Of a stretch of 64,000 nt of DNA, positions 8,579 to 53,700 are shown one piece after another; position 1 is the stretch's first letter, and every line of letters starts with the position of its first letter. The notes under the pieces are model-generated. The model made no database searches. It worked only from the letters and a program-made list of their open reading frames with translations, and was not told where the DNA came from. Source of the stretch: Rhizophagus irregularis (Eukaryota); the NCBI RefSeq assembly GCF_026210795.1, contig NC_089434.1, forward strand, positions 3,658,001 to 3,722,000. The letters are read 5' to 3'. The position numbers and the translations under genes were made by a program.

Positions 8579-11500
8579 ATGCTTGATTTCTTTACAATTC
8601 TAACGAAAGGTGGAATTGTTCTTTGGTCTAAATCTTTTACTCGTATTACTTCGTCACCGGTTAATTCTTTAATTGGAGATGTATTAATTGAAGAAAGGGC
8701 TGGAGAAAATAGTTATACTAAAGATTCTTATAGCTTAAAATGGACATTCGCAAATGAACTAGATCTTATTTTTGTGGTAAATGTCTAATAAAGTGAGTTG
8801 ACTTAGTGAGTTTGTCAACTACGGCCCTTAGTGTTTTTATTATATATACATATATATGTATATTTCGATACTTTAATTTATTATAACGAATATTTATTTA
8901 ACTAGGCTGCTTATCAAAAAATTCTTCAACTTGCATATATTGAAGAACTTCTTGCTACTGTCAAGAAATTCTTTTGTGATAAATTTGCCAATTTTATTAA
9001 AGACTCTGGTAAACTTCACAAATTCGATTTCGATGAGGATTTTGGCGCAATATTAAATAAAATCGAAGAAAAGGATTCCAAGGTTTAAAATATTCTTTAA
9101 TATTGTAAAATGAGGATAATTATTAATCTAATTATTTAGTTTATTATTATTTTTTTAGAGTCATGAGAAGTTATCTAAACCACGACCATTTGAAAAAACT
9201 AAAAAATTTAAAGAAACTGCAGAAGGATCGAAAAAACTTAGTTAGTAAATTCAACATAATATTATCTTATCGGTTTATTTTTTTAAGGGATAAACTTTTA
9301 TGATAAAAAAAAAAATCTTTTTTATTCAGGTGTGAGTGACATATCAAAACCTCCTACGAACCCAATTATCAGTGAAGACGAAATTGCTCGTAATATTGAA
9401 GAACTTCATCGATATAATGGAAAGCGTGGACGTGGTGGACGAAAACAGTCTGGAACTGGTAGACCTAATGTTTCATCAGAGTAAGTATAAGAACAAAAAC
9501 GGATTTATTTTAAATAAGTTTTATTTTGATTAATAATTGTTTATTATATAATAAAGCGAAAAGAAGCAAGCTAGAAAGAAAACAATGCGTGTATGGGATG
9601 ATAAAGTGTCAAAAGCAGAAATGGAAAGTTTGGATTATAGTGGAGATAAGGGTGATAGCGATAAATCGTCATCAGTAGATCCACAAAATTTGGTTGACCA
9701 AAATCAATTGGGTCAGTTTCAGGATGGGTATTATGAAGTACAAGATATAGGTCAAGATGACGACGAGGATGAATTTGAAGAGGATGATTATAATGAAACA
9801 AACGACACTTCAGTCGAAAATAATAGCGGATCTAGCATATTGTCATTTTTTAAAAGTATTACCGGACAGAAAGAAATTACAGAACAGGATCTCGTTCCAG
9901 TATTAGCGAAAATGAAGGAACATTTAATTAAAAAAAATGTTGCAGCTGATATTGCAGCTCATTTGTGTGATTCCGTTGCAAGAAATCTTGTAGGACAAAA
10001 GACCGGAAGTTTTAAGAGTACGTTTATGTTATGAATAAATTTTATAAAATTTCGTCATTAAATTAATCAAAATCTTCTCAACTCAAAAAGGCATTCAGTC
10101 AACTGTGAAACAATCCATGGAGATGTCATTGAAACGTATACTCACACCAAAGACATCGGTTGATTTGCTACGTGATATTGCGCAAGCTCAGTCCGATTCA
10201 CGTCCTTATACGATTTGCTTTATTGGAGTAAACGGTGGGTTAAATTTGTAAGATAGATAATAAAAATAATGATATGCTTATACGTTTATAATTTATATAG
10301 GAGTTGGTAAATGTTTTGCAAAGGGAACCAAAATTTTAATGTATGATGGTACACATCAAAATGTCGAAGAGCTCAATGTGGGAAATCAAATTATGGGAGA
10401 TGATGACAATCCGAGAACTATTCAGTCTACTACGAAAGGTGAAGGTATAATGTACCGTATTATCCCGAATGATAAGGGTCCAGCAAAATTTTTCGAATGT
10501 AACGATCAACATATTCTTGTACTTAAATTTGCTGCTGAACCATACATGCGAAGTGAAGAAATTCCCATCATAAATCGTAGTCCAAGGATTCGCCTCTTTT
10601 GGTATGAATATGACACACAGAATAACATGATCGTTAAAAAGAATGATTCTTTCTATTACGGCCCTGGCGAAGATTATCCTAAAAAAGAGGTAGCCAAGAG
10701 AGCAGCGATACGAGAAATGGCGAGAAGACCCAATCTTGTATCATCAGATTTCATTTGGGAGATACCAATTAAAGATTTCTTGACTGCGTCGGATGAAATA
10801 CAACGAAGTTGTCTTATGTTTAAGCCAAATCAAGTTATTTTTAAATCGGTACAAGGAAGGTTTCGCGTTATTTTAAGCAAAATTCTTGGAGTCAGCCCTA
10901 CTAATTCTCAAATTTCGGCTGCTTCATGGCTTGTTGGTGTTTGGATCGGTGGTGGAATTGTAAAATCACCCATTATTTATGTTAATGAAAATGAAAAGGA
11001 GATTTTAAGAGCTATAGAGCAATACAGTGAAATGTTGAATTGGAGATATATGAAAGAATTACATAAAGCTAAATTAGATGATTCAGAATGGAAAATTTCA
11101 TTTATGAGCGATAATGATATTGAAAACGGGTTCTATGTCCTTCTTCAAACGTTGGATATTTTGGACACTAAAAAAGTGACACCAGTTATTATGACTGATG
11201 AACTTGATCAGGTTTGATTAATTTTGTTTTTATATAATAATTAATTCGTTCAAGAGAAAAAATTGTGAATTAACTTTTTTTTTAATCTAATAGGTTCGCT
11301 TGCCTCTACTCGCTGGAATTTTAGACATTAGTAGCCATTTACTAGAAGAGAACAGAAATTACAGATATGTTTACCGGTCCCTTCACGAGCGATGTGAACA
11401 AATCTGTAATCTGGCAAATTTATCAGGGTTTTATTCTACAAACATAGTTTCAAACATGAAAGAGTGTTCAGATAATATAACGACCCCATCTTGTTGTACG

Positions 11501-12593
11501 ATTATCAGTGGCAATAAGTTAGAAAAACTTCCTTTAGTTATCTCACGTAAGAAAGTATTCAGAAATCGTGATCATCCCAAATTTAATCGCGATATGGTAT
11601 GGGGATTTAAAGTAGAAAAAGTTGGCCTTGGGTCATATTATGGGTTCAAGGTTGATAAAAACGAGCGTATTTTACTAGCAGATTTGACAGTGAGTCATAA
11701 TGTGAGTCTTTTTATTTTTTTTTAAAAAAAGCATGTGCTTTTTTTTGATTTATTATTAATTAATTATGTATATCCTCTCTTATTAGTCCACAAATTTATC
11801 AAAGACTTGTTTTTGGTTATTACAAAACGGATTAAAGGTCCTTATTGCAGCATGTGATACTTTTAGATCAGGTGCCGTAGAACAATTAAGAGTACATGTT
11901 AGGAATTTGAATGCTTTAGGTCAAAATTCAAATGTTGAATTATATGAACGTGGATATGGAAAAGATGCTGCTGGGATAGCAAAGGATGCTATTAATTACG
12001 GTATGTATAAAATTGACTACGGTGGAGACTTGTTGTTGACATATTTTTACATTTTTAGCCAAAATAAACAAATTTGAGGTTGTATTGATCGATACGGCGG
12101 GACGTATGCAGGACAACGAACCATTAATGCGAGCGTTAGCTAAGGTATGATACTGATCGTATTATATATATATTTTACGCGATCTTTTTGAACTAATTTT
12201 AATTTACACTATTAGTTGGTTTCGGTGAATAATCCCGACAAGATTATATTCGTCGGTGAAGCATTAGTTGGCAATGAAGCCGTTGATCAACTCACGAAAT
12301 TTAATCAAGCTTTGAAAGATTTTTCAGGGTTACAAAATCCAAGACATATAGATGGAATGATTTTGACGAAATTTGATACAGTTGATGATAAGGTTTGGCG
12401 GAAATGATATTAAAGACTAACATATGGTAATCAAACACTAACTAAAATTTTTTATTTGGAACAGGTTGGGGCAGCCTTATCAATGACTTATACAACCGGA
12501 CAACCGATTTTATTTGTTGGAACCGGTCAAACGTATACAGACTTAAAGAACATGAGAGTTGGACATATCATTCACTCTCTTCTTAAAGAATGA
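8579..12593 (+). CDS. SRP101: Signal recognition particle receptor alpha subunit (SRalpha), 12 exons, intein-containing. Exons: 8579-8776, 8906-9082, 9159-9240, 9330-9480, 9557-10017, 10091-10234, 10301-11211, 11294-11701, 11787-12000, 12059-12144, 12216-12392, 12465-12593
   Basis: N-terminus [16 protein letters not shown]...[30 protein letters not shown] matches the SRX/longin domain. SRP-GTPase motifs [37 protein letters not shown] and [11 protein letters not shown] appear in order. All GT..AG introns I traced keep the frame through to TGA at 12591-12593. Confidence 0.95.
10312..11701 (+). mobile_element. Intein (436 aa, class-1 C...HN/S) with degenerate LAGLIDADG homing-endonuclease domain, inserted in the SRalpha P-loop; coding sequence split by intron 11212-11293
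   Basis: Block [14 protein letters not shown] follows GVGK directly. Block B-like [12 protein letters not shown]. Endonuclease-like [10 protein letters not shown] and [13 protein letters not shown]. Block [24 protein letters not shown], then Ser as +1 residue. 300 + 136 codons. Removing it restores GVNGVGKSTNLSK. Confidence 0.93.
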
Positions 12594-18548: not shown

Positions 18549-19861
18549 TTATTTATTTCTTCTTTTTTTACCTGAATATTTTTTAATTATTTTATCTATG
18601 GCATGTAATAGATGCCTCCATTCATAAATCTTGATGTCTTTTTCCGCATTTCTTGGTTTTGCAAATGAATAAGACATCAAATCTTTATATATATCATCAC
18701 TATCATTCTTATTTTTACCAACTGTTATTGGTTTATATTCTTCAAGATTACGACGAATTCGATTCTTTTCATCTGAAGTAAGTCTAATTCCTGTTAGACT
18801 TTCAAGTAAATTTAGATAATCCGTTGAAGTGAAATACCATTTATCACATTGTGTTTTCTTATCATACCAATAAAGGCAGGAAACAAAAATACCATTTTTA
18901 GGCCGTTCAATTGGATCAACAGCTTTAAAAGAAGCCATAATTCGTTTTTTTGCTCTAGTTTTAAAAAATTGAACCACTCTTCGTCGAACATTCAACTCTT
19001 CTTGAGACCACAACTGTGTCATATCATTATGATTTCCATCAAAGGAAATTTGGACACCATTAAGCAAATCGGTCAAACTTTCCAAGGTAAAGATTCGAAT
19101 CTTGTGTTTACGATCTGTAGGATGGCTTGATGGTACTATGGGTTGTTCTGTGGATACATTAATAAAAGAAAAAAATAATAATTTAATAATGTACTATAAG
19201 ATAAATTATAAAACTTTTTTATACATACCAGGTTTGCAATCCAATGTTGCATCTGAAATTGCGTCTGAAATTGATGCATCTGAGATTGATGCATTTGAAA
19301 TTGATGAAATTGATGCATCTGAAATTGATGCATCTGAAATTGTTGACAAATCTGAAGTTATTGGATAATAACAATAATTATCGTAAGGAATCTTAGATGA
19401 ATTGTTATTATCGCTTAATGCATTCGAAATTGATGAAATTGATACATCTGAAATTGTTGACAAATCTGAAGTTATCGGATAATAGCAATAATTATCATAA
19501 GGAATCTCAGATGAATTATTATTATCGCTTAATGCATTCGAAATTGATGAAATTGATACATCTGAAATTGTTGACAAATCAGAAGTTGTTGGATAATAGC
19601 AATAATTATCATAAGGAATCTCGGATGAATTGTTATTATCGCTTAGTGCATTTGAAATTGATGAAATTGATACATCTGAAATTGTTGACAAATCTGTAGT
19701 TATTGGATAATAGCAATAATTATCGTAAGGAATCTCAGATGAAGTTAATGAATAATCTAAATAAAAAATTTTTTAAAAAATATAAATTAATTTTTTCAAT
19801 TTGAGAAGAACATAAATTTATATTACATAAAAAAATATATATATATACCAATTATATTCAT
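18549..19861 (-). CDS. Medusa/MedA-like fungal developmental regulator (C-terminal MedA-type domain) with Ser-rich tandem-repeat N-terminus. Exons 19861-19849, 19756-19229, 19147-18549
   Basis: C-terminal WSQEELNVRRRVVQF...SCLYW...TSTDYLNLLESL...EKNRIRRNLE...KPRNAEKDIKIYEW...IIKKYS resembles the conserved MedA/Ren1 domain as I recall it. Two GT..AG phase-1 introns join the ORF-track pieces in frame from ATG at 19861. Confidence 0.75.
19250..19745 (-). repeat. Coding minisatellite: about 3.5-4 copies of a 114-nt (38-aa) unit followed by 15-nt (ISDAS) units
   Basis: STISDVSISSISNALSDNNNSSEIPYDNYCYYPxTSDL repeats with a 114-nt period (e.g. ggaatc at 19501 and 19615). Confidence 0.9.
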
Positions 19862-24649: not shown

Positions 24650-26107
24650 TTAATAGTATATATTATTTCTTCCAGGATCACACCTAAATTCTCTAATTAC
24701 TCCATTTTCTTTATATTTATCGATCAATTTCATATAGTCATCTCCCTTATATATAGGATCAGATGTAAGTATAGTAAGTGCAGGCCGGTCCTTCCAATTT
24801 TTAAAGAATGTCTCCAAATTTTTCAAAGAAAATTGAAATTCTTTAAAAAATCTAATTTCTCTTAGGTTTTTCGGTGCTGATCTAATCAATATTTTTAATA
24901 ATTTTTCTCCAGTTTCTTCTTTATTAATACTTGGTATACTTAATAATAATGATTTCAAAGTTTGACAACTTTTTAATAACGTTTCAAATTCAGTGAAATG
25001 ATCCGCTGTTGATAGAAATAGTAATGATAAATATTCAACTGAAGGACAATTTTGATGGACTTTACAAATAAAATTAAGAGAATCTTCACCAAGGTTATCA
25101 TACCAATATCCGTAATCAATATATCTTAATAAAATTCCTCTGAGATGTCCTCCACTATTTTCAATTATAGCAGAAGCTTCATTTAACGAAGTGAAATCAA
25201 TATTAAAGGCCTCAAGTTCATGATATACCAACATTTTTAATTGGATTTCAGAAAAATAAACATAAACATTATTAATTATTAACGTTTTTAATTTATGAAG
25301 TTTTGTAAGTACATCTTGTATGATTGTGTGTTCATAACAATCAATAAAATCAAGGAACAATATTAAGTGATTAAGAGCGTCAGCTTTTTGTGCTAATGCA
25401 AGAAAAATTTCTTTATAAGGATCTTCTATAAAATCTTCATCGTCAAAATCATCCTTCAACTCAAAATATTTTAGATTTCTTTGATTTTCAATTAATTTGA
25501 CTAATCCATGATTAATTTTCATTTTTCTGTTTATAATAATAAGTCTTTGTATATTTTGACAAATACGGGCTAATCCATGAAAGTATGAAGAATCAATATA
25601 TGTATCACATTCTAATTCGCAAAGTGATTCAAGTCGAGTCTTAGCTCCTGGAAAGTAAAATATTTGATGCTGAAGTGATCTAATATTAATATACTTAAAT
25701 TGAGAACATTTCCTCATTAAAAGATTGTAAATTTCTAGTTGTAAAAGAAATTGATTATATGATTCTGAAGTTCCTATAGAAATTATATCATTCAATATGT
25801 CTACATCTATACTTCTGCAAAAAGATAAGTAATCAAATAAAAGAGGTTGATGTAAAATAGGAGGTAAGAAGATTTCTTGACTTATTAGAGATTCTTTAAT
25901 ATCATCTGATAGATAGGAAATGATAAAAGAGTATAATGAATTTTTATTACGATAATTAATATTATAGCACCAAGGGTTTTTCCATAAGATTGGAATAACA
26001 GTTTCGCACCAAAGCCTATTAACCATTAGGCATGAAAAGAGAGATTTGGAATCTTTTTTTAATTCTTCAAAAATTAAAAAAAGAATATCTTTGTTAAGTT
26101 CAGGCAT
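24650..26107 (-). CDS. F-box / leucine-rich-repeat-like protein (485 aa, intronless)
   Basis: N-terminal F-box-like LNKDILFLIFEEL...LFSCLMVNRLWCETVIPILWKNPW followed by LxxLxL-type repeats. This architecture is typical of a family expanded in Glomeromycotina. Confidence 0.85.
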   Translation of the reverse strand: MPELNKDILFLIFEELKKDSKSLFSCLMVNRLWCETVIPILWKNPWCYNINYRNKNSLYSFIISYLSDDIKESLISQEIFLPPILHQPLLFDYLSFCRSIDVDILNDIISIGTSESYNQFLLQLEIYNLLMRKCSQFKYINIRSLQHQIFYFPGAKTRLESLCELECDTYIDSSYFHGLARICQNIQRLIIINRKMKINHGLVKLIENQRNLKYFELKDDFDDEDFIEDPYKEIFLALAQKADALNHLILFLDFIDCYEHTIIQDVLTKLHKLKTLIINNVYVYFSEIQLKMLVYHELEAFNIDFTSLNEASAIIENSGGHLRGILLRYIDYGYWYDNLGEDSLNFICKVHQNCPSVEYLSLLFLSTADHFTEFETLLKSCQTLKSLLLSIPSINKEETGEKLLKILIRSAPKNLREIRFFKEFQFSLKNLETFFKNWKDRPALTILTSDPIYKGDDYMKLIDKYKENGVIREFRCDPGRNNIYY

Positions 26108-27899
26108 TATTTATTCAATAAATAAAGAAAAAACGTTTAATAATCTGTTATAACTAGAAGCCTGGGAATATATAATTACAGAAGTACAAAATAAAAGAAA
26201 CAAAAACCCCCTAAAATTTATGAATGGAACTAAATTTATATAACAAACCCGAACTCCGAACCAATTGGGTTTGTAAAAATAATATTTCACAAATGTACGT
26301 TAATTACCTGATTAGTCCGAAATGTAACAAAGGAATATATACTTCTACGCTTGATGACGACATGTCCATCCGACACGTGATGATGTATCAGCAATAAGAC
26401 TTTAAATGGCACCTCGGACTTTATAAAGGTTGCCCCGAAGAGAATATGCCCGCGATTGTGCGTGAAGATTTAGGCAGTTTAATATAATGAATTTCATGTA
26501 TTTGCATTTGCTTACTTGTAGCCAATTCATATAATTTCTTTAATAAAAAAAAAATAACGGTTTCCGCTTCCTAGTTTACTAATTATTAATAATAAATTAT
26601 ATTAAAACTTGTTCAAAAAAATAATAATATATGTAATTTTTATAAAAAAAGTAATGTTTTATATGAAATATAATTTTTCAAATTAAATGATAATCTAATT
26701 AAGGCATAATCCATCAAATCTCAAGTTATGAAAATTTGACAAGATTCTAACTTCTAAGCCAATCCCGTTAATAATAGCAATCGTCTAACATCTTAATAAC
26801 GCCAAAATCCTGATTGAGATTCAACCGGATAAATTTGAGATTGGTTAATTTTTAATTGAGTTATTTCTAATTTTAGAAAAACAATTGATGAACATTTCAT
26901 TCTTATGCTATGGCGTTTATTTACCTTTCATTTTACCTTCATAACTGCGTTTAATTAATATTTTAAAACCGAGAATACCTCCTAGTAAAGCGGATGTAGC
27001 TCAATGGTTTAAAGAAACTTATATTTATGGAAAATAGGACGAGAAATATGTAGTTCGCGATGATCACTATTTCCACCAGCATTATGATCAATTTCGTTAA
27101 TATTAATAAAATTTATTAATGATTTGTGTTTAGAAATAATTTAATATACAGTATGTGATAAATTACGACCCGTTACTGCACCATAACATTTTTAAAATTA
27201 TACGCTTAATTGGCTTATTTTTTTAAAAAAAAAAACTTCAAGAATTAGTTTGGCTGTCAAGATTTTTTAGTTGTCAGAATTTTGTGGTTGTAAAAGAACA
27301 AAAAATATCAAACATGGAACGATTGTGAATAAATTGATACCTTATGAGCATATAATGCATGGAACAGGAATTGTTGCCTAAAGGTTAACGTAACAAACGG
27401 CATCATTAAAATTTTTAATAAATATTTTCTATGCCATGATATAAATGTTGTTTTTATTATTATTTCTCTTCGTTGTACCTATTATTTCATTAATAATAAA
27501 TTAGTTCAATGCACTTATTTAAGAATCAAGCGAAAACATTTTGAATTATTTATTATATAATATGGATACATGAGCAGCGTGTGATTTTCAAACTTAAACA
27601 TGCGGATGGCGCACACCGTATGGGTGCGGTAGTACGCAAATGCCGCAAAGCGACACGAATAATTTTTTAACGATGCGCAAAAAATTTTATCTCCGTATTA
27701 TGTAAATTTAATTACTAAGTTCTTTTTAAAAAAGAGGTGCAATGTAATAATTATAGTTATACAATGCTTTTATTTTCTTATAAAATTGAATGTTCTTTAT
27801 TAATTGAATATTATATTAATTACATATTAATGAATTATGAATAAAATTATAAAATCCATAAAAAAATTATAAAAATGTTCAAGATATGAATATTTCTAT

Positions 27900-40572: not shown

Positions 40573-42354
40573 TCATTTACTCATCGGTGTATGGTAAGTC
40601 TTTAATAATTCTCCATTTACAGGTATCTTCTTGATGACACCTTTAATATTTTTAATTCTATAAGCTCCATTCGGTAGTATTTCATGAATGTAAAATGGTC
40701 CCAACCATTTTGATTCTAATTTTCCCGATAGTTGTTGTGCTTTGGCTTTATCATAGAGTAGTATTTTATCTCCAATTCCAAAGGTGTGTTCTTTGATTAT
40801 TTTTCTGTCATGATACTCTTTTTGTTTTGTTTGAGATTTCAGTATTTGTTCTTTGGCTTCATGTCGGATTTTTGGTAGTTCTTCTAATAATCCAACTATT
40901 CTATCACTTAGGTTAATTTCTTTGATATTTTCATCCATTATTGTCCGTACATTTCTTCCGTATGTTAAATAAAATGGTCGAATTCTTGTTGAACTATGCT
41001 TTTTATTTCGGTAAGCAAATAATATGGGTGCTATCCTTTGATCCCAATCATCTTTGGTTGATAATTTTGCTAATGCTTGACCTAATGTTCGGTTGAATCT
41101 TTCAACAAGTCCGTTTGTCTCTGGATGATAACTTGTAGAAAAATTCCATTTAATTTTGAATTTTTCCATTAATTCCTTAATCATTTCATTATTGAAATGA
41201 CTTCCTCTATCACTCAATATTTTCATTGGACATCCATGTCTACAAATGATGTCTTCATAAATAAATTTTGATACTTCTTTGGCAGTTGCTTCTTTTACTG
41301 CTTTGGCTTCTGGCCATTTTGTAAAATAATCCATTGCTACTATGATGTATTTATTACCATTTGTTGTTGTGTTCAATGGTCCCACAAAGTCAATCCCGAT
41401 TTGATACCATGGTTCTACTACTTTAATTGGGTGTAATTCATTTTTCCCTTGTGGTTTTCCTCTTCTTTGACATTCATCACATGTCCTTACATATCTTTCA
41501 ACATCATTCAGCATATTTTCCCAATAATATTTATCTTTTAAATTATCATAAGTACTTTTGATTCCCATATGTGCCGATAATTCATGACTGTGAGCTAAAT
41601 ATAGTGCTCCCATCTTTTCAAAGTCTTCTATTATTCTGATGTTTTTACCATTTTTCTCAATATGCTTTTTACCATCAGTTACTCTGATGTTATCCTTAAT
41701 CTCAACATTTTTAACCTCTATTGGTGGTTTATCTCCATCTAATTCTATTACTTTATTATATACTCTTTCCCAATCTGTGTCATTATTCGATATTTTAATA
41801 TTAGCATATTTTTCTCCTTCGTAAATATCTTGACATTCTTTAAATGATTTCACCATCTCCATATATCTTTCTTCATCTAATAATGGATATGATGTTTTAT
41901 GTCCTTGATCCTTTTTCGAATATTCTCTACCTTTGTAATTTTCCCAACATTTTTCATTTTCTAAAAATATCACTATTGATTCATCAATTATCCTTTTGTT
42001 CCTAAATACTTCCTTTTCTAATAGGTGGTTCTCATATCTTGTTATGTATCCTCTGTCGAATGATGGTGTATGTTGATAAAAGTACTCACTATAGGGACTT
42101 TTATCTAATATTAACCAATCCTCATTATCATGTTCTTCCATTCTCCTGTTGATTTGTTCGACAACTTCCTTCCTGAATTCCCATTCTATACCTTTCTTTG
42201 GTATTTTATACTTATCATTGTCCTCTCTTCTCCTTTTAAAGGTGTTAAACCTCACACTTTGTCCTACTTTTTCAAATTCTTTTATAAGTTTATTTACAAT
42301 GAATGTTTTTCCAGTACCATCAACTCCACATATGATTATTATTTTAGGTCCCAT
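40573..42354 (-). CDS. Fusion ORF: thymidylate/dNMP-kinase-like P-loop domain (about aa 1-205) + Gypsy integrase (HHCC, DDE, GPF/Y)
   Basis: KIIIICGVDGTGKT (Walker A) and WLILDKSPYSEYFYQ (compare TMK DRxxxSxxAYQ). Then HSHELSAHMG...CDEC, GIDFVGP, ILSDRGSHF, HPETNGLVERFN and KWLGPF. Confidence 0.85.
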   Translation of the reverse strand: MGPKIIIICGVDGTGKTFIVNKLIKEFEKVGQSVRFNTFKRRREDNDKYKIPKKGIEWEFRKEVVEQINRRMEEHDNEDWLILDKSPYSEYFYQHTPSFDRGYITRYENHLLEKEVFRNKRIIDESIVIFLENEKCWENYKGREYSKKDQGHKTSYPLLDEERYMEMVKSFKECQDIYEGEKYANIKISNNDTDWERVYNKVIELDGDKPPIEVKNVEIKDNIRVTDGKKHIEKNGKNIRIIEDFEKMGALYLAHSHELSAHMGIKSTYDNLKDKYYWENMLNDVERYVRTCDECQRRGKPQGKNELHPIKVVEPWYQIGIDFVGPLNTTTNGNKYIIVAMDYFTKWPEAKAVKEATAKEVSKFIYEDIICRHGCPMKILSDRGSHFNNEMIKELMEKFKIKWNFSTSYHPETNGLVERFNRTLGQALAKLSTKDDWDQRIAPILFAYRNKKHSSTRIRPFYLTYGRNVRTIMDENIKEINLSDRIVGLLEELPKIRHEAKEQILKSQTKQKEYHDRKIIKEHTFGIGDKILLYDKAKAQQLSGKLESKWLGPFYIHEILPNGAYRIKNIKGVIKKIPVNGELLKTYHTPMSK

Positions 42355-42583
42355 TTTTACATAATTCTGATAATTCTAGCTTGTTTACTTTACTTAATAT
42401 CACCTCTATTTGTAATATTTCCTCTTGAGTTTCCAATATTAATGGTCTTTCTTCACTATCTTCAAAATTTTTGGCTTTGAATTTATAGTTATAATTTATC
42501 CTGTTTAATTCCTTTGTTATACCTTCTAAATTTTCGATTATATCCTTTATTTTATGATTTGTATTTCTTACCACTTGTTCCAT
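42344..42583 (-). CDS. Small hypothetical ORF (79 aa, helical/coiled-coil-like) between RNase H and kinase-integrase
   Basis: AAAATGG start context. Fills the gap after the RT stop and overlaps the next ORF by 11 nt. No recognisable motif. Confidence 0.5.
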   Translation of the reverse strand: MEQVVRNTNHKIKDIIENLEGITKELNRINYNYKFKAKNFEDSEERPLILETQEEILQIEVILSKVNKLELSELCKNGT

Positions 42584-42618
42584 TTTATTTTTGAAAAGTA
42601 ACTCTTTTACCCCTCTAT

Positions 42619-44100
42619 TTATATTATTCTTGATAAGGCATCTGCATTTTTATTTTCTTTTCCTGGTCTATGGGTTATTTCAAAATCATACTGTTCCAAT
42701 TCCATGACCCATCTTGATCTCTTTCCTTTTGGTACTTTTGCAGTCATTAATCCCTTCAAAGCTGCATGGTCTGTTACTACCTCAAATTTTCTATTGATCA
42801 AGTATTTATGGAAATGTTGTATTCCCCATACAATTGCATAACATTCTTGTTCGGTTATTGGCCATCTTTGTTCTGTCCTGTTTAAACTTTTACTGGCATA
42901 TTCTATTACATATTCTTGACCTTTATCATCTTTTTGAGCTAACACTGCCCCTAATCCTATTCCTGAAGCATCTGTGATTAATATAAATTTCCTTAACCAA
43001 TCTGGTTGTCTTAACACTGGTTCTTCGGTTAATTTCCTTTTTAATATTTCTAATGCTTCATGTTGTTTGATGCCCCATTCAAACTTTTCATCTTTTCTCA
43101 ATAAAGATGTTATTGGTTTTACTATTTTTGAAAAATCTTTAATAAATTTTCTATAATACGTACATAACCCCAATATTGACCTTACACCTTTTATATTTAT
43201 AGGTGCTGTTAATTTTTGTATCTTTTCAACCTTTCCTGGACTTGGTTTTAATCCATTTTTACCAACTACATGTCCTAAAAATTCTATTTCTGTTTTTCCA
43301 AATATACATTTCTTTAACTTTAGTATTAAACTGGCTTCCTTTAATTTTTCTAACACTAACTTTATGTGTTTTAGGTGGTCTTCAAAATTTTCCGAATATA
43401 TCATTATATCATCAATGTATACTATCACAAATTCATTTAGGTACTCCTTTAATACTTTATCCATTAACCTTTGAAAACTTGCAGGTGCATTTGTTAACCC
43501 AAATGGCATGACATTATATTCATATAATCCTGCTGAGCATATGAATGCTGTTTTCTCAATATCTTCCTCAGCCATTTCTATCTGATTAAACCCTGATGCT
43601 AAATCTAGACTGGTAAACCATTTTCCTGAACTTATCCTTTCTAATTGTTCATCAATCCTTGGTAATGGATATGCATCTGTTATTGTAACTTTATTTAATT
43701 TTCTATAATCGATGCAAAACCTATAATTTCCAGACTTTTTCCCTGCTAAAGTCACTGGTGAAGACCATGGACTTCTAGATTCTCTAATTTTTCCCAATTT
43801 TAACATCTCGTCAACCTCTTTTCTGATGAATTTACCTTTTTCATCATTTTCTTTGTACCTCTTTTGGGCTATTGGTTCAGTACCCCCTTTTAATCTGATT
43901 TCATGTTTTACTAGGTTTGTCCTATTATATTTTTCACCATCGTACTCAAATATATCCTTATATTTTTCTACTAATACTTTTAATTTACCTTTTTGTTCAT
44001 TGGTTATGTCCCCTACTTTAAATTTTTCAGTAAATTTTTCATGGTCACTTTTGTGCTTCTTTATCGTCTCTTCAGTATCATTCTGACCAAGACTTATACT
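42619..44100 (-). CDS. Reverse transcriptase + RNase H (frame open from 44100; first Met at 43806)
   Basis: RFCIDYRKLN, LDLASGF, MPFGLTNAP, YIDD, TDAS, VTDH and NADALSR. The upstream open frame encodes the usual pre-RT segment (KHEIRL...PIAQKRY...EVDEML). Confidence 0.95.
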   Translation of the reverse strand, partial: SISLGQNDTEETIKKHKSDHEKFTEKFKVGDITNEQKGKLKVLVEKYKDIFEYDGEKYNRTNLVKHEIRLKGGTEPIAQKRYKENDEKGKFIRKEVDEMLKLGKIRESRSPWSSPVTLAGKKSGNYRFCIDYRKLNKVTITDAYPLPRIDEQLERISSGKWFTSLDLASGFNQIEMAEEDIEKTAFICSAGLYEYNVMPFGLTNAPASFQRLMDKVLKEYLNEFVIVYIDDIMIYSENFEDHLKHIKLVLEKLKEASLILKLKKCIFGKTEIEFLGHVVGKNGLKPSPGKVEKIQKLTAPINIKGVRSILGLCTYYRKFIKDFSKIVKPITSLLRKDEKFEWGIKQHEALEILKRKLTEEPVLRQPDWLRKFILITDASGIGLGAVLAQKDDKGQEYVIEYASKSLNRTEQRWPITEQECYAIVWGIQHFHKYLINRKFEVVTDHAALKGLMTAKVPKGKRSRWVMELEQYDFEITHRPGKENKNADALSRII

Positions 44101-44621
44101 TTAAAATTTTCATCTTCCTGACCTTCATGGTCATCTTCATATATGTTATACAATTCATCCTGGTATAATTCTTCTAATATTTCCTCTTCATCAAATGTTT
44201 CTTCAAACCCTTTAATGGTCCTTTGTGTGTATTTTACTGGTATATCCATAGTTTCATCATTCATTCTAATTATTATTGTTTTATCTGTGTAATCTATATT
44301 TGCTTTGAACATATCTAATACTCCATTTCCTAACACAATTTCGTTTTTTCCTGAATCAATTACTTCAACCTTAATGGGTATTTCTTTATCCCCAAATTGT
44401 ATGTATATTGTCGTGGTACCCCTAGATGCTAATTTATCCTCATTTATCATCACACATCTTACTGTACTCGGTTCCTCAATTTTTAGGTCCATTTCATCCA
44501 TTATCTGACTAGTTATTACATTTACTGCTGCTCCTGTATCAAACATTACGTCCTTTAATTCTTGGTTTATTATTAATTTACCTCTTAATGCAGTTAAATG
44601 CTCTGCTTCAATGTTGTTCAT
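44094..44621 (-). CDS. Retropepsin-like aspartic protease, in frame with gag across a single TGA
   Basis: VMFDTGAAVNVI catalytic motif and IVLGNGVL. Confidence 0.9.
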   Translation of the reverse strand: MNNIEAEHLTALRGKLIINQELKDVMFDTGAAVNVITSQIMDEMDLKIEEPSTVRCVMINEDKLASRGTTTIYIQFGDKEIPIKVEVIDSGKNEIVLGNGVLDMFKANIDYTDKTIIIRMNDETMDIPVKYTQRTIKGFEETFDEEEILEELYQDELYNIYEDDHEGQEDENFKV

Positions 44622-44633
44622 TGATTCTTGTAG

Positions 44634-47600
44634 TCAATCTGTTTGTGGATACCTTCTCATACCATCATAATATATTTTTCTTTGTTCTGGGCTCATATCT
44701 ATAATTTGTGAAAAAGTTGCATTTGCTCTGGTACTTTTCATATCCTCTAATACGTTATATTTTGGTATATTTCTTTGAAATGCGCTTGTCCTATGAATAC
44801 CTTCAACACGTTCATTTTTACATTGTTTTGCATAGTGACCTCTTTGTCCACAATTTCCACATGTATTATTATTTCTCCTTGCTTCTTGTGCTTTCCTCAG
44901 ACTTTCATCAGTGAATCCCCTTTTTGGTAATGCTGCTGCCCTTTCCTCTTGGCTTGCATATTTATTATTTCTTCTTCGTGTTTGTTCTTGGTCAATTTCC
45001 ATATCTATATCTCGATCACTTGACCTATTTTTTATGTTACTTCTCGTTTGTCTTTCACCTATATAAAAATCTTGATCAACATGGTTAAATGTTACATCAT
45101 TATCTTGATAATACGGGTCGTCATAACTATATCCTTGATCATAATTATCCTGATAATCCTGACTATCATAATCATATTGGTCATATTGGTCATTATAATT
45201 ATCATATTCCACTACATTGAATCCTCGATTATTGTTTTGGTGGTTTGGTGGTCTGTTATAGTTATTTGGTCTTCCATTATAGTTATTTGATCTTCTATTA
45301 TAATTTTGATTATTTGGTCTTCCATAGTTTCTTTGACCATTATTTACCCTACATTCATTTGCATAATGTCCTGGTTGTTTACAATTATAACATGCTCGAG
45401 GTGGTGGTCCTTGTCTATTATTATTGTTTGGTGGTCTCTTTTGCCCTCCAAGTTGATTTACTAGTTTTACCTCTAATTTTTTAAACATGTCGGCAAGGTC
45501 ATCCTCATAATTTTTCTCCAATGGTTTTTCAAATATATTCTTTGGTTTGTCATCTTGTATATCGATTCCTTTTCTTTGGGTACTAACTGATATACCATGT
45601 GTCTTTCTTATTAATTCATTAGTAGCTTCCTCTTCTCTTCTTGCTGTATTCACTGCATCATTTAAATTTGCTGGGTTTTGTCTTCTGACTTGATATCCCA
45701 ATGTTGGTGTTAATCCTTCGATATAATTATCCACTTGTAATTCATCATCTAATGCATGGCCTCTGGTAGCTATCCTTAATATTTGTCTAAACCTTATCGT
45801 ATATGCCTCAACATTTTCATTTACTCCTTGTGTTATTTTCCTTAATTCTAACATTTTCCTTTTTCTAACATCTTCCCTGGTAAATCTTTGTTTAATCCTA
45901 TGTTTTAAATCATTATCATTATCGTTATCTTGCCAATTTACCAAATGACCATTGTTTGCTTCCTTCTTTTCATTATACCATTGTGCTGCTGCACCTTTCA
46001 AACAGGTAGCTGCCATTGCTGCTTGTCTAGCTCCATTTACTCCTGCTGCTTTTCCTATAGCAGTAAATGCTGTTTCAAATTGTCTTACCCAATCGTTTAC
46101 GTCTTCTTCTTCCCTTCCATAAAATTGTGGCATACTAATTATTCCTCCAGCTACATTTCCTGCATCCTCAATTGCATTTGCTAATGGGTTGGCTGCGACT
46201 AATCCAGCCCAATTACCTCCTATATCATGTCCCGTTGCTGCTAGTAAAGCCGCTCTAAAATCTTCCCTTACTTCAGCTCTTGTTGCTCCCATAATTATTG
46301 GTACTATTGGTAGAATTGGTGGTATCGGTGGTGTTAAAGGTGTTTCAAATAAATTTTCTATATTATAATCAGATATTTCGCTTTTATTTTCAGAATTTGA
46401 TTCTGAACTTTCACTTGAGTCAAAACCAGGTCTATTTATAATGTTTTCTTCATAAGGTTCTTCAAAATTTTCATTGTTATCAGTATCATTTGGATTTAAA
46501 ATTTCTCCGTCTTTTCCAGATCCATCTGATTCTTTTTCAGATCCATCAGATTTTTCATTATCAGATTCATTTCCACTACTTTCACTATCCTCAATTCCAG
46601 CTTGCTGTTTTAGAAATTTATCTAATATTCGCCTTAAATTTTTCTCCATTTCATTTTTATTTCCTTGGAATATTTCAATAAATTCTTGATCCAATATTTC
46701 TCCATCAGTATATCCCATACTGATTAACCTCAATAACTCTCCATTAGTTATTCCTATTTTATTATCATCACATACTTGTTTCAATCTTTTAACCCTGATA
46801 TCAATTTCATTTTCGTCATTCTCACAATCCCTACACTTGGTTTTTCCTTCGTCAAATTTATTGTTCATCCATCTTATTCCACATTCATCACAAAATGTGG
46901 TATTTTCATTTATCCATTCATATAATTTTATCCTTAATTCTTTGTCATTCGTATTAATTTCCTGGAAATATTTTTCCATAAATTCCGTTGTTAATATTAT
47001 ACTATTGCTTATCCTGAATTCTCTTATTCTCCCTATTTCTGACACATTTAATTCGTATCCTAGTTTTTCTAAGTCATCCTTTAATTCTAATAACTCTTTT
47101 TGTTCACAATTTTTACATTGTCCAATGTCTGCTATCATATCAGGTAACTTTCTATTTCTACAATTTCCACATCTTAATGTTTCTTTTGTTAACCATTCAT
47201 TTATTTCATCCTTCAATTTTTCATCACTTAATCCCATTAATTCGGAAAATGTACCTAAAAAGTCCTCTGTTAATATCAATTCTATCCTTATCCTTAGGTC
47301 CCACATTCTTTGTATATCTTTGTCAGTGAACCCTCCACCCATTTCTTCAATTTTTCTTTTTAATGATTCTACTGTCCATTCGACATCATCCTCTATTTTT
47401 ATTTCATAATGTATACTACCATCACTGTCCTCCAATTCATAACTTTCAGGACTAGCACTTTCTGGGTCTTCAGGTTCCCTTGTAAATTGTTTGGTGTCAA
47501 TAAATCTTTGTAACACTTTCCGTATCAATCTTTCCCATTCTTGTTGTTTTGATTCTTCCTTTCCTAATGAGTTTCTGTAAACAATTGTATTCGTTAAATC

Positions 47601-48218
47601 AATTACTTCTCTTATTTTTTTAGTTATGGTTTCTTCCATGTATAATAATTTCCTGAATATTACTATCGTTTCTGGTGTCGCATGGATTACTTCCACCCCA
47701 AATTCTAATATTGAACCGTACCATTCCCAAAATTTTTGAAATCTGTTTTCAATATCCCAATCTTCCAAAATATATCCATGTTCCATTATTTCTGGACATC
47801 CAATTAACCGGTCAAATACTTCATTTTCCAAGTTTCCTTCAATACAATCCCTTACAATTACTACAATTATTATTCTCAATCCTTTTTCCTTCATTTTTGG
47901 TTGTTGTCTGTACCTTATTGATTCAATTATTCTATCTACTATATTCCTACATTTTCCCTTATGTATTGTATCCTCCCTTTCTCTATTGTCCATACTTAAT
48001 AAATTCAATAATTCTTTATGTGTTACATTATTGTACATTAGTATTGTATCCTCAAATTTAAATAAAGCATCCCAAAATTTCTTGAATGCCGCTGATACTT
48101 CTCTTTCTATTGGATTACATATTTCACATGCTAAACATTCCTCTGGTTCTATCACTCCTAGGTCATGTTCTTGTTTATGGTTTATATATTCAGCGTTCCA
48201 AACATGGTACCATTCCAT
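44634..48218 (-). CDS. Large Gag-containing ORF (1194 aa) with about 640-aa N-terminal extension, capsid-like domain and two CCHC knuckles
   Basis: PQFYGREEEDVNDWVRQFE...CLKGAAAQWY...ITQGVNENVEAYTIRF (retrotransposon gag). Knuckles CYNCKQPGHYANEC and CGNCGQRGHYAKQC. Confidence 0.92.
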   Translation of the reverse strand: MEWYHVWNAEYINHKQEHDLGVIEPEECLACEICNPIEREVSAAFKKFWDALFKFEDTILMYNNVTHKELLNLLSMDNREREDTIHKGKCRNIVDRIIESIRYRQQPKMKEKGLRIIIVVIVRDCIEGNLENEVFDRLIGCPEIMEHGYILEDWDIENRFQKFWEWYGSILEFGVEVIHATPETIVIFRKLLYMEETITKKIREVIDLTNTIVYRNSLGKEESKQQEWERLIRKVLQRFIDTKQFTREPEDPESASPESYELEDSDGSIHYEIKIEDDVEWTVESLKRKIEEMGGGFTDKDIQRMWDLRIRIELILTEDFLGTFSELMGLSDEKLKDEINEWLTKETLRCGNCRNRKLPDMIADIGQCKNCEQKELLELKDDLEKLGYELNVSEIGRIREFRISNSIILTTEFMEKYFQEINTNDKELRIKLYEWINENTTFCDECGIRWMNNKFDEGKTKCRDCENDENEIDIRVKRLKQVCDDNKIGITNGELLRLISMGYTDGEILDQEFIEIFQGNKNEMEKNLRRILDKFLKQQAGIEDSESSGNESDNEKSDGSEKESDGSGKDGEILNPNDTDNNENFEEPYEENIINRPGFDSSESSESNSENKSEISDYNIENLFETPLTPPIPPILPIVPIIMGATRAEVREDFRAALLAATGHDIGGNWAGLVAANPLANAIEDAGNVAGGIISMPQFYGREEEDVNDWVRQFETAFTAIGKAAGVNGARQAAMAATCLKGAAAQWYNEKKEANNGHLVNWQDNDNDNDLKHRIKQRFTREDVRKRKMLELRKITQGVNENVEAYTIRFRQILRIATRGHALDDELQVDNYIEGLTPTLGYQVRRQNPANLNDAVNTARREEEATNELIRKTHGISVSTQRKGIDIQDDKPKNIFEKPLEKNYEDDLADMFKKLEVKLVNQLGGQKRPPNNNNRQGPPPRACYNCKQPGHYANECRVNNGQRNYGRPNNQNYNRRSNNYNGRPNNYNRPPNHQNNNRGFNVVEYDNYNDQYDQYDYDSQDYQDNYDQGYSYDDPYYQDNDVTFNHVDQDFYIGERQTRSNIKNRSSDRDIDMEIDQEQTRRRNNKYASQEERAAALPKRGFTDESLRKAQEARRNNNTCGNCGQRGHYAKQCKNERVEGIHRTSAFQRNIPKYNVLEDMKSTRANATFSQIIDMSPEQRKIYYDGMRRYPQTD

Positions 48219-48384
48219 TTTTAATAAAATTCTCTAAAAATTTTCACGTCTTTTACTTTTTATCCTTCTTTTATATTTTATTTGACCTATACTGGGCTTG
48301 CCTTTACCTCATTTGTTCATTACTGAGTATGGTAGTTTACAGGTTTGTACAAATAATTTTATATTTTTCCTTAAAATTCCCAAC

Positions 48385-50605: not shown

Positions 50606-50710
50606 ACAGTACGTACAGTACGATCACTGTCAAACTAAATAAATATGTTGTGTAAATTGTGGGCGTTTCAGCCGTTTCATCTTCGCTTTTTTTTTTGAAA
50701 TAATAAAAAA

Positions 50711-53700
50711 ATGTCACAAATTGATATAGATTGTGAAAAATGTGGCGACACATACACATATGTAGAAGATGGATGGTGTAGACCATGTCAAATAGATAAT
50801 TTTAAAAAAAATCTTACAAATTGGACAAGCGGAAATGAAATCATTGATAATTTAATTCAAAAAAAAAATCAAGATATTTATGGACCAAATGATATAATAT
50901 TTGAATGGATACCATACAATCAATTGAATGATATTAAAGAAATAAACAATGTTTTATATTTGGCAATATGGAAAGATGGTCCATTATACTATTGTCATCA
51001 CAAAAAGGAATATGTAAGGAAATCTAAGAATGAAAAAATCATTATTTTCAGTTTGTATGATTTACCAATTATTACCAATGAATTTTATGATAAGGTATGA
51101 AATGATTTTATTTAATCCAAAATTTTAATATATAAATATATATTTAATTGAAATATTTTTTTTTATTATTTATAATAGGTTAAATCATATTTTTCAGAAT
51201 ATTATTATTTATCAATACATGGAATATCTCAAAATCCAAATACAAAAGAATATTTTATGGTTTTTCAAGATGATCATTGTGAAAAATGTGGTAAAAAATA
51301 TACAACAGTGAAGTACAAATGGTGTGAATCATGTCAAATAAATTATTTAGAGAAAAATTTTACAAATTGGACTAGTGGAAATGAAATAGTTGATAATTTT
51401 ATTCAAGAATTTCAATTAAAAATTAATGATTACAATGATATAATAATCGAATGGATACCATATGACCAGCTTAATAATATTAAAGAAATAAGAAAAGATG
51501 GTTTTAGTACAATATATTCAACAATATGGGAGGACGGTCCTTTATATTATTGTCTTTATAAAAAAGAATATAAAAGAAAGTTAGGAAAAAAACAAGTTGC
51601 TTTAAAATATATGCATAATTCACAAAATATTACCAACGAATTATTAAGCAAGGTATGAAATTTAATATAAATATTTTTTTTTATATTGTTTTTTATACTA
51701 ATTAATTTTCAAATAAAGGGACGTAATAGTAATGCTCTTCCGATATATGGAATATCACAAAATCCAGATACAAAAGATTATATAATAGTTATTCAAGATG
51801 AATATTGTGAAAAATGTGGTGAAGAATATACAAACATATTTTATAAATGGTGTAAACCATGTCAAATAAGCAATTTAAAGGAAAATTTTATAAATTGGAC
51901 TAGTGGAAATGAAAAAGTCGATAATTTCATTCAAGATAGGCAACTAAATCATATTGATCGCTACAATGATCCAATACTTGAATGGATATCATACGAACAG
52001 TTTGACAATATTAAAGAAATAAGCAAAAATGGTATTATTACAATATGTACAGCAATATGGAAAAGTAGTCCATTAAATTATGATATAAATAAAAAAATAT
52101 ATAAGAGAGATTTTATAAATCAAAATAAAAAAGTTACTTTAATATGTTATAATACACAAGATATTATTGAATTTTTAAGCAAGGTAAGAAAGTTTCTTAT
52201 AAATTTCCTTTATATTATATTATTTTTTAGTAATGTTTTTTTCTTATTTTTAATAGGATAATTCAAAGTTATATAGGATTGATAATATATATGGATTAAC
52301 TCAAAATCTAGATACAAAAGATTATATAATGTTTCTTAAAGATAAATATTGTGAAAAATGTGGTGAAAAATATACAAATAAATTTTATAAATGGTGTAAA
52401 CCATGTGAAATAAATTATCTAAAGAAAAATTTTACAAATTGGACAAGTGGAAATGAAAAAGTCAATAATTTTATTCAAGAATTTCAACTAAAAATTAATC
52501 GTTATAATAATATAATAGTTGAATGGATACCATACAATCAGTTTGATAATATTAAAGAAATAGGTAAAAATGATTTATTTACAATATATTCAGCAATATG
52601 GAAAAATGGTCAGTTGATTTATGATAAAAATGAAAGAATATATAAAAGAAATTTAAAAAATCAGAATGAAATAGTTACTTTAAAATCATTTAATTCACAA
52701 AATATTACTGAAGAATTTTTTAATAAGGTATAAAATTTTTCTTTATTAATTTATTTTATTTTAATTATTTTGGTAATATTTTATTTTATTTTATTAGAGT
52801 AACAACTCTGTATACAGTAATAAAATATATGGAGTATCACAAAATCCAAATAATCCAAATACAAAAAATTATATTATAGTTATAAAAGAGATATATTGTG
52901 AAAATTGTGGTAAAGAATATACAGATACATTTCACAAATGGTGTAAACCATGTCAAATAAGCAATTTGAAGAAAAATTTTACAAATTGGACCAGCAAGAA
53001 TGAAAAAATTGATAAATTTATTCAAGAAATGCAATTAAAAAATTTTCATTTTACAAATATAATAGTTGAATGGATACCATATGAACAGTTTAATAATATT
53101 AAAAAAATAAACAAAGATGATTATATTACAATATGCTCAGCAATATGGAAAAATGGTCAGTTAAATTATGATCAATATAAAAAAATATATCAAAGAAATT
53201 TAAAAAATAAGAATCAAAAAATTACTTTAAAATTTTACAACTTGCAAGATAATGCTGATAAATTTTTTAATGAGGTATAAGATTCAGTTCTTTAATAAAT
53301 TATTTTATTTTATTTTCTAATGAAAATATTTTTCTAATAGGCTAATGATAATAAAATAATATATGGAATATCTCAAAATCCAGATACAAAAGATTATATT
53401 ATGGTTATTGAAAATATATATTGTGAAAAATGTAGTGAAATTTTGCATGATTCTTGGTGTAAATCATGTCAATTAGGTTATTTAAAGAAAAATTCTATAA
53501 ATTGGACCAGTGGAAATAAAAAAATCGATGAACTTATTCAAGAAATGCAATTAAAAATTAATGATAAATCTGATACAATATTTGAGTGGATACCACACAA
53601 TCAGTTTAATAAGATTGAAGAAATAGGTAAGGGAGGATTTGCCATAGTTTATTCAGCAATATGGAAGGACGGTCCATTATTTTACAAAGAAAAATTTAGA

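What the first reader, a model, noticed from the sequence alone, without database searches (positions are those of the whole stretch)
10312..11701. Intein in the GTPase P-loop of the SRP receptor alpha subunit
Seen: a 436-aa insert splits Walker A GVNGVGK|ST, beginning [13 protein letters not shown] and ending TVSHN before Ser, with a block B His and LAGLIDADG-like blocks. Known: these are class-1 intein hallmarks, closely resembling the yeast VMA1 intein, which also sits in a P-loop. The fungal nuclear intein hosts I recall are VMA1, PRP8, GLT1, CHS2, ThrRS, RNA polymerase and IF2/eIF5B, not SRalpha. Inference: a possibly undescribed eukaryotic intein host. ER protein targeting would then depend on protein splicing, because the unspliced P-loop should not bind GTP.
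Basis: partly seen in the sequence, partly recalled or inferred. Interest (0 to 1): 0.92.

Follow-up and report, generated by a model that had tools for sequence, protein, structure and literature searches.

The report
Known intein in fungal SRP receptor
This is a real but already catalogued intein, a 436-residue insert in the GTP-binding loop of a mycorrhizal fungus's SRP receptor, which likely cuts itself out of the protein and has probably lost its ability to spread as a DNA-cutting element.

Summary
A 12-exon SRP receptor alpha gene (8579-12593, +) encodes 1045 aa, with a 436-aa insert splitting Walker A as GVNGVGK|C...HN|ST. The insert scores as Pfam Hom_end_hint (1.9e-20). Its predicted fold matches the yeast VMA1 intein PI-SceI (pLDDT 88; Foldseek E 6e-29). 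RNA contigs keep the insert's exons and splice only ordinary introns.

The novelty claim fails. Green et al. 2018 list this intein (Rhizophagus irregularis SRP-alpha, ESA14846, 436 aa) and note the P-loop site. A 2023 PNAS legend mentions it too.

Added here: both LAGLIDADG catalytic aspartates are lost. Among 120 SRalpha hits only Rhizophagus and Funneliformis carry the intein. One spliceosomal intron lies inside it and another sits exactly at its C-terminal junction. Its sister in my trees is an intein in Paraglomus ABC-F proteins, a host I did not find in print. Protein splicing itself is untested.

The parts
8579..12593 (+). SRP receptor alpha subunit gene, 12 exons: 8579-8776, 8906-9082, 9159-9240, 9330-9480, 9557-10017, 10091-10234, 10301-11211, 11294-11701, 11787-12000, 12059-12144, 12216-12392, 12465-12593; 1045-aa precursor, 609 aa without the intein
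   Evidence: Open frame; identical to P0001; Pfam; 10 of 11 introns bridged by RNA contigs, intron 1 not bridged
10235..10300 (+). Intron 6 (66 nt, phase 1), splitting the P-loop codon for the second Gly of GVNG, 11 nt upstream of the intein
   Evidence: joint in 1 of 4 RNA runs (X15), fitting loose ends in X17
10301..10311 (+). End of the N-extein: Walker A ...G-V-G-K, Lys at -1
   Evidence: sequence
10312..11211 (+). Intein aa 1-300: Cys1 (10312-10314), block B N64-x-x-H67 (His at 10510-10512), an extra beta/helix subdomain, first LAGLIDADG helix with Gly214 (10951-10953) where PI-SceI has Asp218, block D Lys287
   Evidence: Pfam Hom_end_hint 2.1e-17 for this exon alone; alignments
11212..11293 (+). 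Intron 7 (82 nt, phase 0, GT-AG, 16% GC, stops in all three frames) inside the intein, just before the second LAGLIDADG helix
   Evidence: spliced in RNA contigs of 3 of 4 runs, one of which (X16 record 11) probably comes from a decayed copy
11294..11701 (+). Intein aa 301-436: second LAGLIDADG helix with Ser313 (11330-11332) where PI-SceI has Asp326; blocks F and G ending His435-Asn436
11702..11786 (+). Intron 8 (85 nt, phase 0) exactly between the intein's last codon (Asn436) and the +1 Ser codon
   Evidence: bridged without a gap in contig coordinates by X16 record 12 and X20 record 23 (table 8)
11787..11789 (+). +1 Ser of the C-extein (the S of Walker A GK-S-T); predicted splicing nucleophile
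   Evidence: role inferred from the class-1 mechanism (recalled)

Best explanation
The gene encodes an SRP receptor alpha precursor whose Walker A loop is split by a VMA1/PI-SceI-type intein that likely excises itself after translation and probably can no longer home. Shown: the mRNA loses its introns but keeps the intein's two exons, so the 1045-aa precursor is what is encoded. Inferred from the standard class-1 pathway (recalled): Cys1 forms a thioester with Lys-1, helped by block B His67; Ser+1 attacks it; Asn436 cyclises, helped by His435; an O-N shift joins Lys408 to Ser845 and rebuilds GVNGVGKST in a 609-aa receptor. Until then the P-loop would not bind GTP. Inferred: the LAGLIDADG domain keeps its fold but lacks both metal-binding aspartates in all four species aligned, so the intein passes down vertically. 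It entered once in a common ancestor of Rhizophagus and Funneliformis and stays because only an exact deletion would leave a working essential gene. It has since been treated as ordinary nuclear coding DNA and gained at least one spliceosomal intron.
For: Junction residues C1, N64, H67, H435, N436 are invariant in 16 aligned inteins. Profile match to PI-SceI over the whole length, E 2.7e-46. AlphaFold model pLDDT 87.8, pTM 0.84; the top 11 Foldseek hits are all PI-SceI structures, TM 0.69-0.79. RNA contigs join intein exon to intein exon and intein exon to C-extein; none of the 9 listed joints skips the insert. With a donor at 10302-10340 and an acceptor at 11690-11799, only two joins stay in frame and both spoil the P-loop. 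Identity between this protein and Funneliformis: G domain 96%, Hint ends 83-85%, endonuclease region 59%, below even the acidic linker at 68%, as expected if splicing is selected and homing is not. Blocks C and E read GVWIGGG/GAWISNG and LAGILDI[S/N/G] against GLWIGDG and LAGLIDSDG in PI-SceI and intact relatives. The four SRalpha inteins in the tree form one clade (100/100) in the order Funneliformis, R. clarus, then R. irregularis with R. diaphanus. 5 of 120 SRalpha hits carry the intein, all Rhizophagus or Funneliformis.
Against: Protein splicing was not observed: no assay or proteomics was available, and I found none in the passages read. Endonuclease death rests on two residues whose catalytic role in PI-SceI (D218, D326) is recalled; the fold, the block D Lys and the length (435-438 aa in four species) are kept. 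Absence in other Glomeromycota rests on predicted proteins, and 2 of 120 models (Ambispora, Paraglomus) are garbled at the P-loop. In the DNA-type runs 13 of 28 joints were not shown, so an empty allele is not fully excluded. RNA evidence is from contigs of four metatranscriptomes of non-identical strains, not raw reads.
Confidence: 0.88

Rival explanations
1. Domesticated switch: the intein is kept because its splicing is conditional (redox, metal or temperature), so it gates ER targeting in the fungus, or the freed intein has a DNA-binding job.
For: Full-length fold and near-constant length are kept although the catalytic aspartates are gone. Related inteins sit in two other translation-linked P-loop NTPases of Glomeromycota, eIF5B and ABC-F. 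PMC10710043 mentions conditional splicing as a known idea (passage).
Against: The endonuclease region is the least conserved part of the precursor (59%). Six other named Glomeromycota species have no intein in their SRalpha models. Related eIF5B inteins have lost 40-60 aa of this domain (364 and 388 aa against 427), which fits slow decay. No functional data.
Confidence: 0.08
2. The intein is still an active homing endonuclease that spreads to empty SRalpha alleles.
For: Two-helix LAGLIDADG architecture is predicted and matches PI-SceI and I-DmoI. Green et al. group it with HEN(+) inteins by size (supplement legend passage).
Against: Both acidic positions are replaced in all SRalpha inteins aligned. 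Pfam finds neither Hom_end nor LAGLIDADG_3 in P0001 or P0005 at E up to 0.5, but finds both in the related eIF5B intein P0010. The tree follows host relationships.
Confidence: 0.03
3. The insert is removed from the RNA (alternative splicing), or the locus is a dead copy and another gene supplies SRalpha.
For: Introns lie 11 nt before the intein and right at its end. Rhizophagus genomes hold many other copies of this region.
Against: No RNA join restores GVNGVGKST, and skipping both intein exons breaks the frame. RNA contigs keep the exons. The other copies are deleted and frameshifted. The G domain here is 96-99% conserved across species. No intein-free Rhizophagus SRalpha is among the 120 best hits.
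Confidence: 0.01

Closest known systems
R. irregularis SRP-alpha intein, ESA14846 (Green, Novikova and Belfort 2018, PMC5784728, Table S8 and supplementary sheet 'OTHER nDNA and cpDNA inteins')
   Same: Same host, 436-aa intein, 408-aa N-extein, C-extein starting STNLSK. The 400 letters shown of the intein match by eye. The authors' comment places it in the P-loop with GK-S as +1.
   Different: Nothing in identity. The word 'intron' does not occur in their four supplementary files, and they list one species only.
Saccharomyces cerevisiae VMA1 intein PI-SceI (VDE)
   Same: Hom_end_hint family, CFAKGT start, NxxH block B, YYG block F, HN end, two-helix LAGLIDADG domain, overall fold (TM up to 0.79), insertion in a nucleotide-binding protein (P-loop site recalled).
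   Different: About 20% identity. Host is a GTPase. +1 is Ser (Cys in VMA1, recalled). Both catalytic Asp positions are lost. The coding sequence contains an intron.
Glomeromycota eIF5B/IF2 intein (R. irregularis ERZ97405 in Green 2018; Acaulospora P0139, Racocetra P0142)
   Same: Same wider subfamily, same GK|T-type P-loop site, shared insert and 'VRLPLL' motif, decayed endonuclease.
   Different: Not the sister in my trees: a clade of SRalpha plus these eIF5B inteins is rejected (AU p 0.0004; with P0010 p 0.003). PMC10710043 suggests a transfer between SRP receptor and eIF5B in a Rhizophagus ancestor. The R. irregularis eIF5B intein itself was not in my set.
Aspergillus PRP8 inteins with a 'C-terminal intron' (Butler et al. 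2006, PMC1508164)
   Same: A spliceosomal intron just downstream of a fungal intein (Table 1 and Table 4 passages).
   Different: There the intron is 'almost immediately downstream' of the site. Here it is exactly at the junction, and a second one lies inside the intein.
Anaeramoeba cluster 1 P-loop inteins (PMC10710043)
   Same: Intein spread between Walker A loops of unrelated proteins (section read).
   Different: Different organism and network cluster; the paper puts the Rhizophagus inteins in the cluster 15 tree.

Membership tests
Class-1 intein | In-frame insert absent from orthologues, at a conserved host site | tested here: met
   113 of 120 relatives have the unbroken motif, 5 have the insert, 2 models are garbled; 80 of 80 metagenome loci unbroken
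Class-1 intein | Cys/Ser at position 1; His-Asn at the end; Ser/Thr/Cys at +1 | tested here: met
   C1, H435, N436, S+1, conserved in five SRalpha proteins
Class-1 intein | Block B His | tested here: met
   CNDQH67, aligned with CNATH of PI-SceI
Class-1 intein | Hint fold formed by the two ends | tested here: met
   Pfam Hom_end_hint over aa 409-843; predicted model matches PI-SceI and Prp8 intein structures
Class-1 intein | Insert is kept in the mature mRNA | tested here: met
   RNA contigs bridge intein exons and both junction introns; no skip among 9 listed joints
Class-1 intein | Self-excision and extein ligation | not testable with these tools
   needs a splicing assay or proteomics
VMA1/PI-SceI-type intein (Hom_end_hint) | Full-length similarity to PI-SceI in sequence profile and fold | tested here: met
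   E 2.7e-46; Foldseek E 6e-29
Active LAGLIDADG homing endonuclease | Acidic residue at the end of both LAGLIDADG helices (positions of PI-SceI D218 and D326; role recalled) | tested here: not met
   Gly/Asn at the first, Ser/Asn/Gly at the second in four species
Active LAGLIDADG homing endonuclease | Two-repeat LAGLIDADG fold | tested here: met
   predicted model; I-DmoI matches at E about 1e-4
Active LAGLIDADG homing endonuclease | Cleavage of the empty allele | not testable with these tools
   needs an in vitro assay
Hedgehog-like or GIN1-type Hint autoprocessing domain | Terminal Hint domain without a C-extein that completes the host fold | tested here: not met
   The domain is internal and the C-extein holds most of the GTPase domain; Pfam Hint scores below cut-off

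The most novel reading that the evidence does not exclude
A P-loop-hopping intein lineage colonised three translation-linked NTPases of arbuscular mycorrhizal fungi (SRalpha, eIF5B and an uncatalogued ABC-F/GCN20-like host in Paraglomus). The SRalpha copy was then domesticated: homing-dead, intron-bearing and fixed in Rhizophagus and Funneliformis, with its splicing acting as a conditional switch on ER protein targeting.
Probability: 0.08. Interest if true: 0.7.

Novelty: already known. Interest (0 to 1): 0.2.

Why it matters
As a discovery it matters little: the intein, its host and its P-loop site have been in a published supplement since 2018. It is still one of the rare nuclear inteins in a secretory-pathway protein, and nobody in the papers I read has shown that it splices. 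The small additions are useful to intein specialists. An intron inside the intein and one exactly at its junction show long residence in a nuclear gene and bear on the idea that introns block homing. The related intein in Paraglomus ABC-F proteins may be a new host and questions the published SRalpha-eIF5B transfer.

Tried and rejected
No genome is held for the window, so the eIF5B gene and the decayed copies could not be read as DNA. RNA-level removal: rejected. Hedgehog/GIN1-type Hint: rejected (the family is described in passages of PMC8778642). Is intron 8 older than the intein? The metagenome scan kept the best 80 of 367 matches; all 80 (16 duplicates) lack an intron or intein at the P-loop, but they are unnamed, none is recognisably Glomeromycota and some may be transcripts, so the question stays open. 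The garbled Ambispora and Paraglomus models break right after GVNG(V), a weak hint that intron 6 is older than the intein. Empty alleles: none of the 15 shown joints (of 28) in four DNA-type runs removes exactly the intein. No second copy of the gene lies in the window. Searches for earlier scan findings returned nothing. Paper searches for introns inside inteins gave no such report in the listings or in the passages of PMC1635734; this is weak evidence because most subscription papers are missing. Searches for an ABC-F or Paraglomus intein (PNAS main text) found none; one search listed only 20 of 214 papers. The PNAS SI Appendix and datasets S1 and S2 could not be read and may list the ABC-F host or show the tree in more detail. 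Runs with no share of the words (X21-X24) were not used.

Full report
Observation. The region is AT-rich eukaryotic DNA with short GT-AG introns. Twelve exons from 8579 to 12593 give one 1045-aa frame with a single stop. It is identical to P0001, which its source names as a Rhizophagus irregularis protein. Pfam finds SRP-alpha_N (26-269), SRP54_N (294-366), Hom_end_hint (409-843, E 1.9e-20) and SRP54 GTPase (843-1043). The best solved relative is an SRP receptor alpha subunit, 5l3q_B (E 7e-145). The insert is 436 aa, from Cys at 10312 to His-Asn at 11701, between GVNGVGK and STNLSK.

It is an intein. Of the 120 best SRalpha hits listed (465 passed E 1e-90), 113 have an unbroken GVNGVGKSTNL[SA]K, 5 have the insert and 2 are garbled models without it. 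All 80 metagenome loci kept (of 367) are unbroken. A profile of five related inserts aligns end to end with PI-SceI (E 2.7e-46). A model built from 16 aligned inteins is confident (pLDDT 87.8, pTM 0.84), and its 11 best Foldseek matches are PI-SceI structures (best E 6e-29, TM 0.69-0.79). C1, N64, H67, H435 and N436 are invariant in those 16.

It is not removed from the RNA. With donors at 10302-10340 and acceptors at 11690-11799, only two joins keep the frame, and they give GVNG-STNL or GVGKCF-STNL, neither a valid P-loop. Skipping both intein exons shifts the frame. I laid four of the six runs recorded as RNA, from four studies. Nine joints were listed, all modelled introns; none skips the intein. 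Intron 8 is missing from the joint table because a repeat there was skipped, but two contigs bridge it (X16 record 12; X20 record 23, which runs 10896-11209, 11292-11701, 11787-11999). Intron 1 was not bridged. These are contigs of related strains, so they show presence only.

How it likely works. By the class-1 pathway (recalled, not tested): Cys1 thioester, attack by Ser+1, Asn436 cyclisation, O-N shift. This joins Lys408 to Ser845 and yields a 609-aa receptor. Lys and Ser are the two residues of Walker A that contact phosphate and Mg (established knowledge), so the precursor should not bind GTP. Selection fits this: against Funneliformis the Hint ends are 83-85% identical and the G domain 96%, while the endonuclease region is 59%, below the acidic linker at 68%.

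The endonuclease is probably dead. PI-SceI has GLWIGD218G and LAGLIDSD326G (the catalytic role of these residues is recalled). The four SRalpha inteins tabulated have GVWIGGG, GAWIGGG or GAWISNG, and LAGILDI[S/N/G], while relatives such as P0137 and P0154 keep both aspartates. Pfam detects no endonuclease family in P0001 or P0005 but does in P0010. Against this, the fold, Lys287 and the length are kept.

Distribution. The intein occurs in R. irregularis (two clusters), R. diaphanus, R. clarus and Funneliformis caledonium. It is absent from the predicted proteins of Diversispora eburnea, D. epigaea, Gigaspora rosea, Acaulospora colombiana, Ambispora gerdemannii and Paraglomus occultum, the last two being the garbled models. 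The SRalpha inteins form one clade in host order. One gain followed by vertical descent is the simplest reading; without DNA for the other species, loss or mis-annotation is not excluded.

Introns. Intron 7 lies inside the intein, intron 8 exactly between Asn436 and Ser+1, and intron 6 eleven bases upstream of Cys1. They look like the gene's other introns in length and GC. An unnamed relative's open frame (P0135, 87% identical) stops at the same DELDQV, which suggests that intron 7 is shared. An intron just downstream of fungal PRP8 inteins is known (PMC1508164, passages), and introns at empty intein sites are discussed in PMC10710043 (section 9). I found no report of an intron inside an intein, which is weak evidence.

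Relatives. From all proteins held, 135 full-length inteins were cut out automatically. The 40 best by BLAST, minus two near-duplicates, went into a 38-row tree. Of the 15 best, 13 follow a Walker A GK; the other two are eIF5B models damaged at that loop. The sister of the SRalpha inteins is an intein in the first Walker A of an ABC-F protein (GRNGIGK|C...HN|ST) of Paraglomus occultum and P. brasilianum, at 96/96 in the large tree and 93/94 in a 16-row tree. eIF5B inteins from Acaulospora and Racocetra group with eIF5B inteins of other, unnamed organisms. An AU test rejects SRalpha plus these two as one clade (p 0.0004; p 0.003 with P0010). The ABC-F stem is long (1.4), so attraction between long branches is possible, and the R. 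irregularis eIF5B intein was not in the set. The result questions but does not overturn the published remark of an SRalpha-eIF5B transfer.

What is known. Green et al. 2018 (PMC5784728; I saw main-text passages, part 1 of supplement 1, part 25 of supplement 2 and term searches) list in Table S8 'SRP-alpha, KOG0781, 1 intein, Glomeromycota'. Their sheet gives R. irregularis ESA14846 with a 436-aa intein and 408-aa N-extein and comments that it is in the P-loop with GK-S as +1. PMC10710043 (passages, section 9, two of five supplements searched) names the Rhizophagus SRP receptor intein in the Fig. 4B legend. Of 16 papers holding 'intein' and 'Rhizophagus', the 15 listed show no dedicated study in their titles (listing only).

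Verdict. Real, correctly read, already known. Membership of class-1, PI-SceI-type inteins is met on every sequence and structure feature tested; splicing is untested; membership of active homing endonucleases fails on the catalytic residues. Interest 0.2. The leads worth a separate look are the Paraglomus ABC-F intein and the intron arrangement.

Noticed in passing
P0009 aa 98-532 and P0285 aa 226-659 (Paraglomus occultum CAG8611873.1, P. brasilianum CAG8477636.1): Related full-length intein in the first Walker A of an ABC-F (GCN20-like, name inferred) ATPase; 35-36% identical to the SRalpha intein and its sister in two trees. Not in Green 2018 Table S8 or supplements; 'intein' plus 'Paraglomus' finds 0 papers. 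Possibly an uncatalogued eukaryotic intein host.
   Followed up: partly
window 9900-12200, seen in runs X4, X6, X9, X10; proteins P0140, P0144, P0155, P0290-P0293 and others: Many diverged (85-95%), deleted and frameshifted copies of the SRalpha-plus-intein locus; most listed deletions recur in three or four of four runs, and short Rhizophagus 'hypothetical proteins' map onto extein and intein pieces. They keep intron sequence, so they look like DNA-level duplicates, perhaps carried by a transposon (untested).
   Followed up: partly
window 11064-11539, run X16 record 11: An RNA contig splices intron 7 but begins with letters that match a deletion junction seen in X9, so at least one decayed copy seems to be transcribed and spliced.
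   Followed up: no
Green 2018 sheet, R. irregularis eIF5B ERZ97405; P0139, P0142: The authors asked where the +1 nucleophile is. Their sequence runs ...LLGDFT-TKLL and lacks VTHN, while Acaulospora and Racocetra orthologues end VTHN|TKLL. A gene-model error at an intron near the junction is likely; not checked in DNA.
   Followed up: partly
P0157, P0160, P0177, P0179, P0180, P0183, P0186 and about ten more (unnamed library): A well-supported intein clade sits after GK in many unrelated P-loop proteins and a kinase DFG motif; in many the residue after His-Asn is Val (VS.., VR..), which may be read-through into an intron placed right at the C-terminal junction, as in this gene. The source organism is unknown.
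   Followed up: no
P0020 (Ambispora) and P0084 (Paraglomus) SRalpha models: Both are garbled right after GVNG(V), hinting that intron 6 is older than the intein.
   Followed up: partly
window 40576-48233, minus strand: Ty3/gypsy-type LTR retrotransposon: gag with zinc knuckles, protease, reverse transcriptase and RNase H, integrase. The integrase frame continues into about 250 aa with a weak P-loop (AAA_28, E 4.6e-05) match at the frame's start, which is unusual.
   Followed up: no
window 50699-54712, plus strand: Multi-exon tyrosine-kinase-like gene with tandem Cys-rich repeats (CEKC...WCKPC) before the kinase domain.
   Followed up: no
window 18552-19772 and 24653-26110, minus strand: A DUF7082 gene with a repeated segment upstream, and a 486-aa frame with an F-box-like start (by eye) and no Pfam match at E 0.001.
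   Followed up: no
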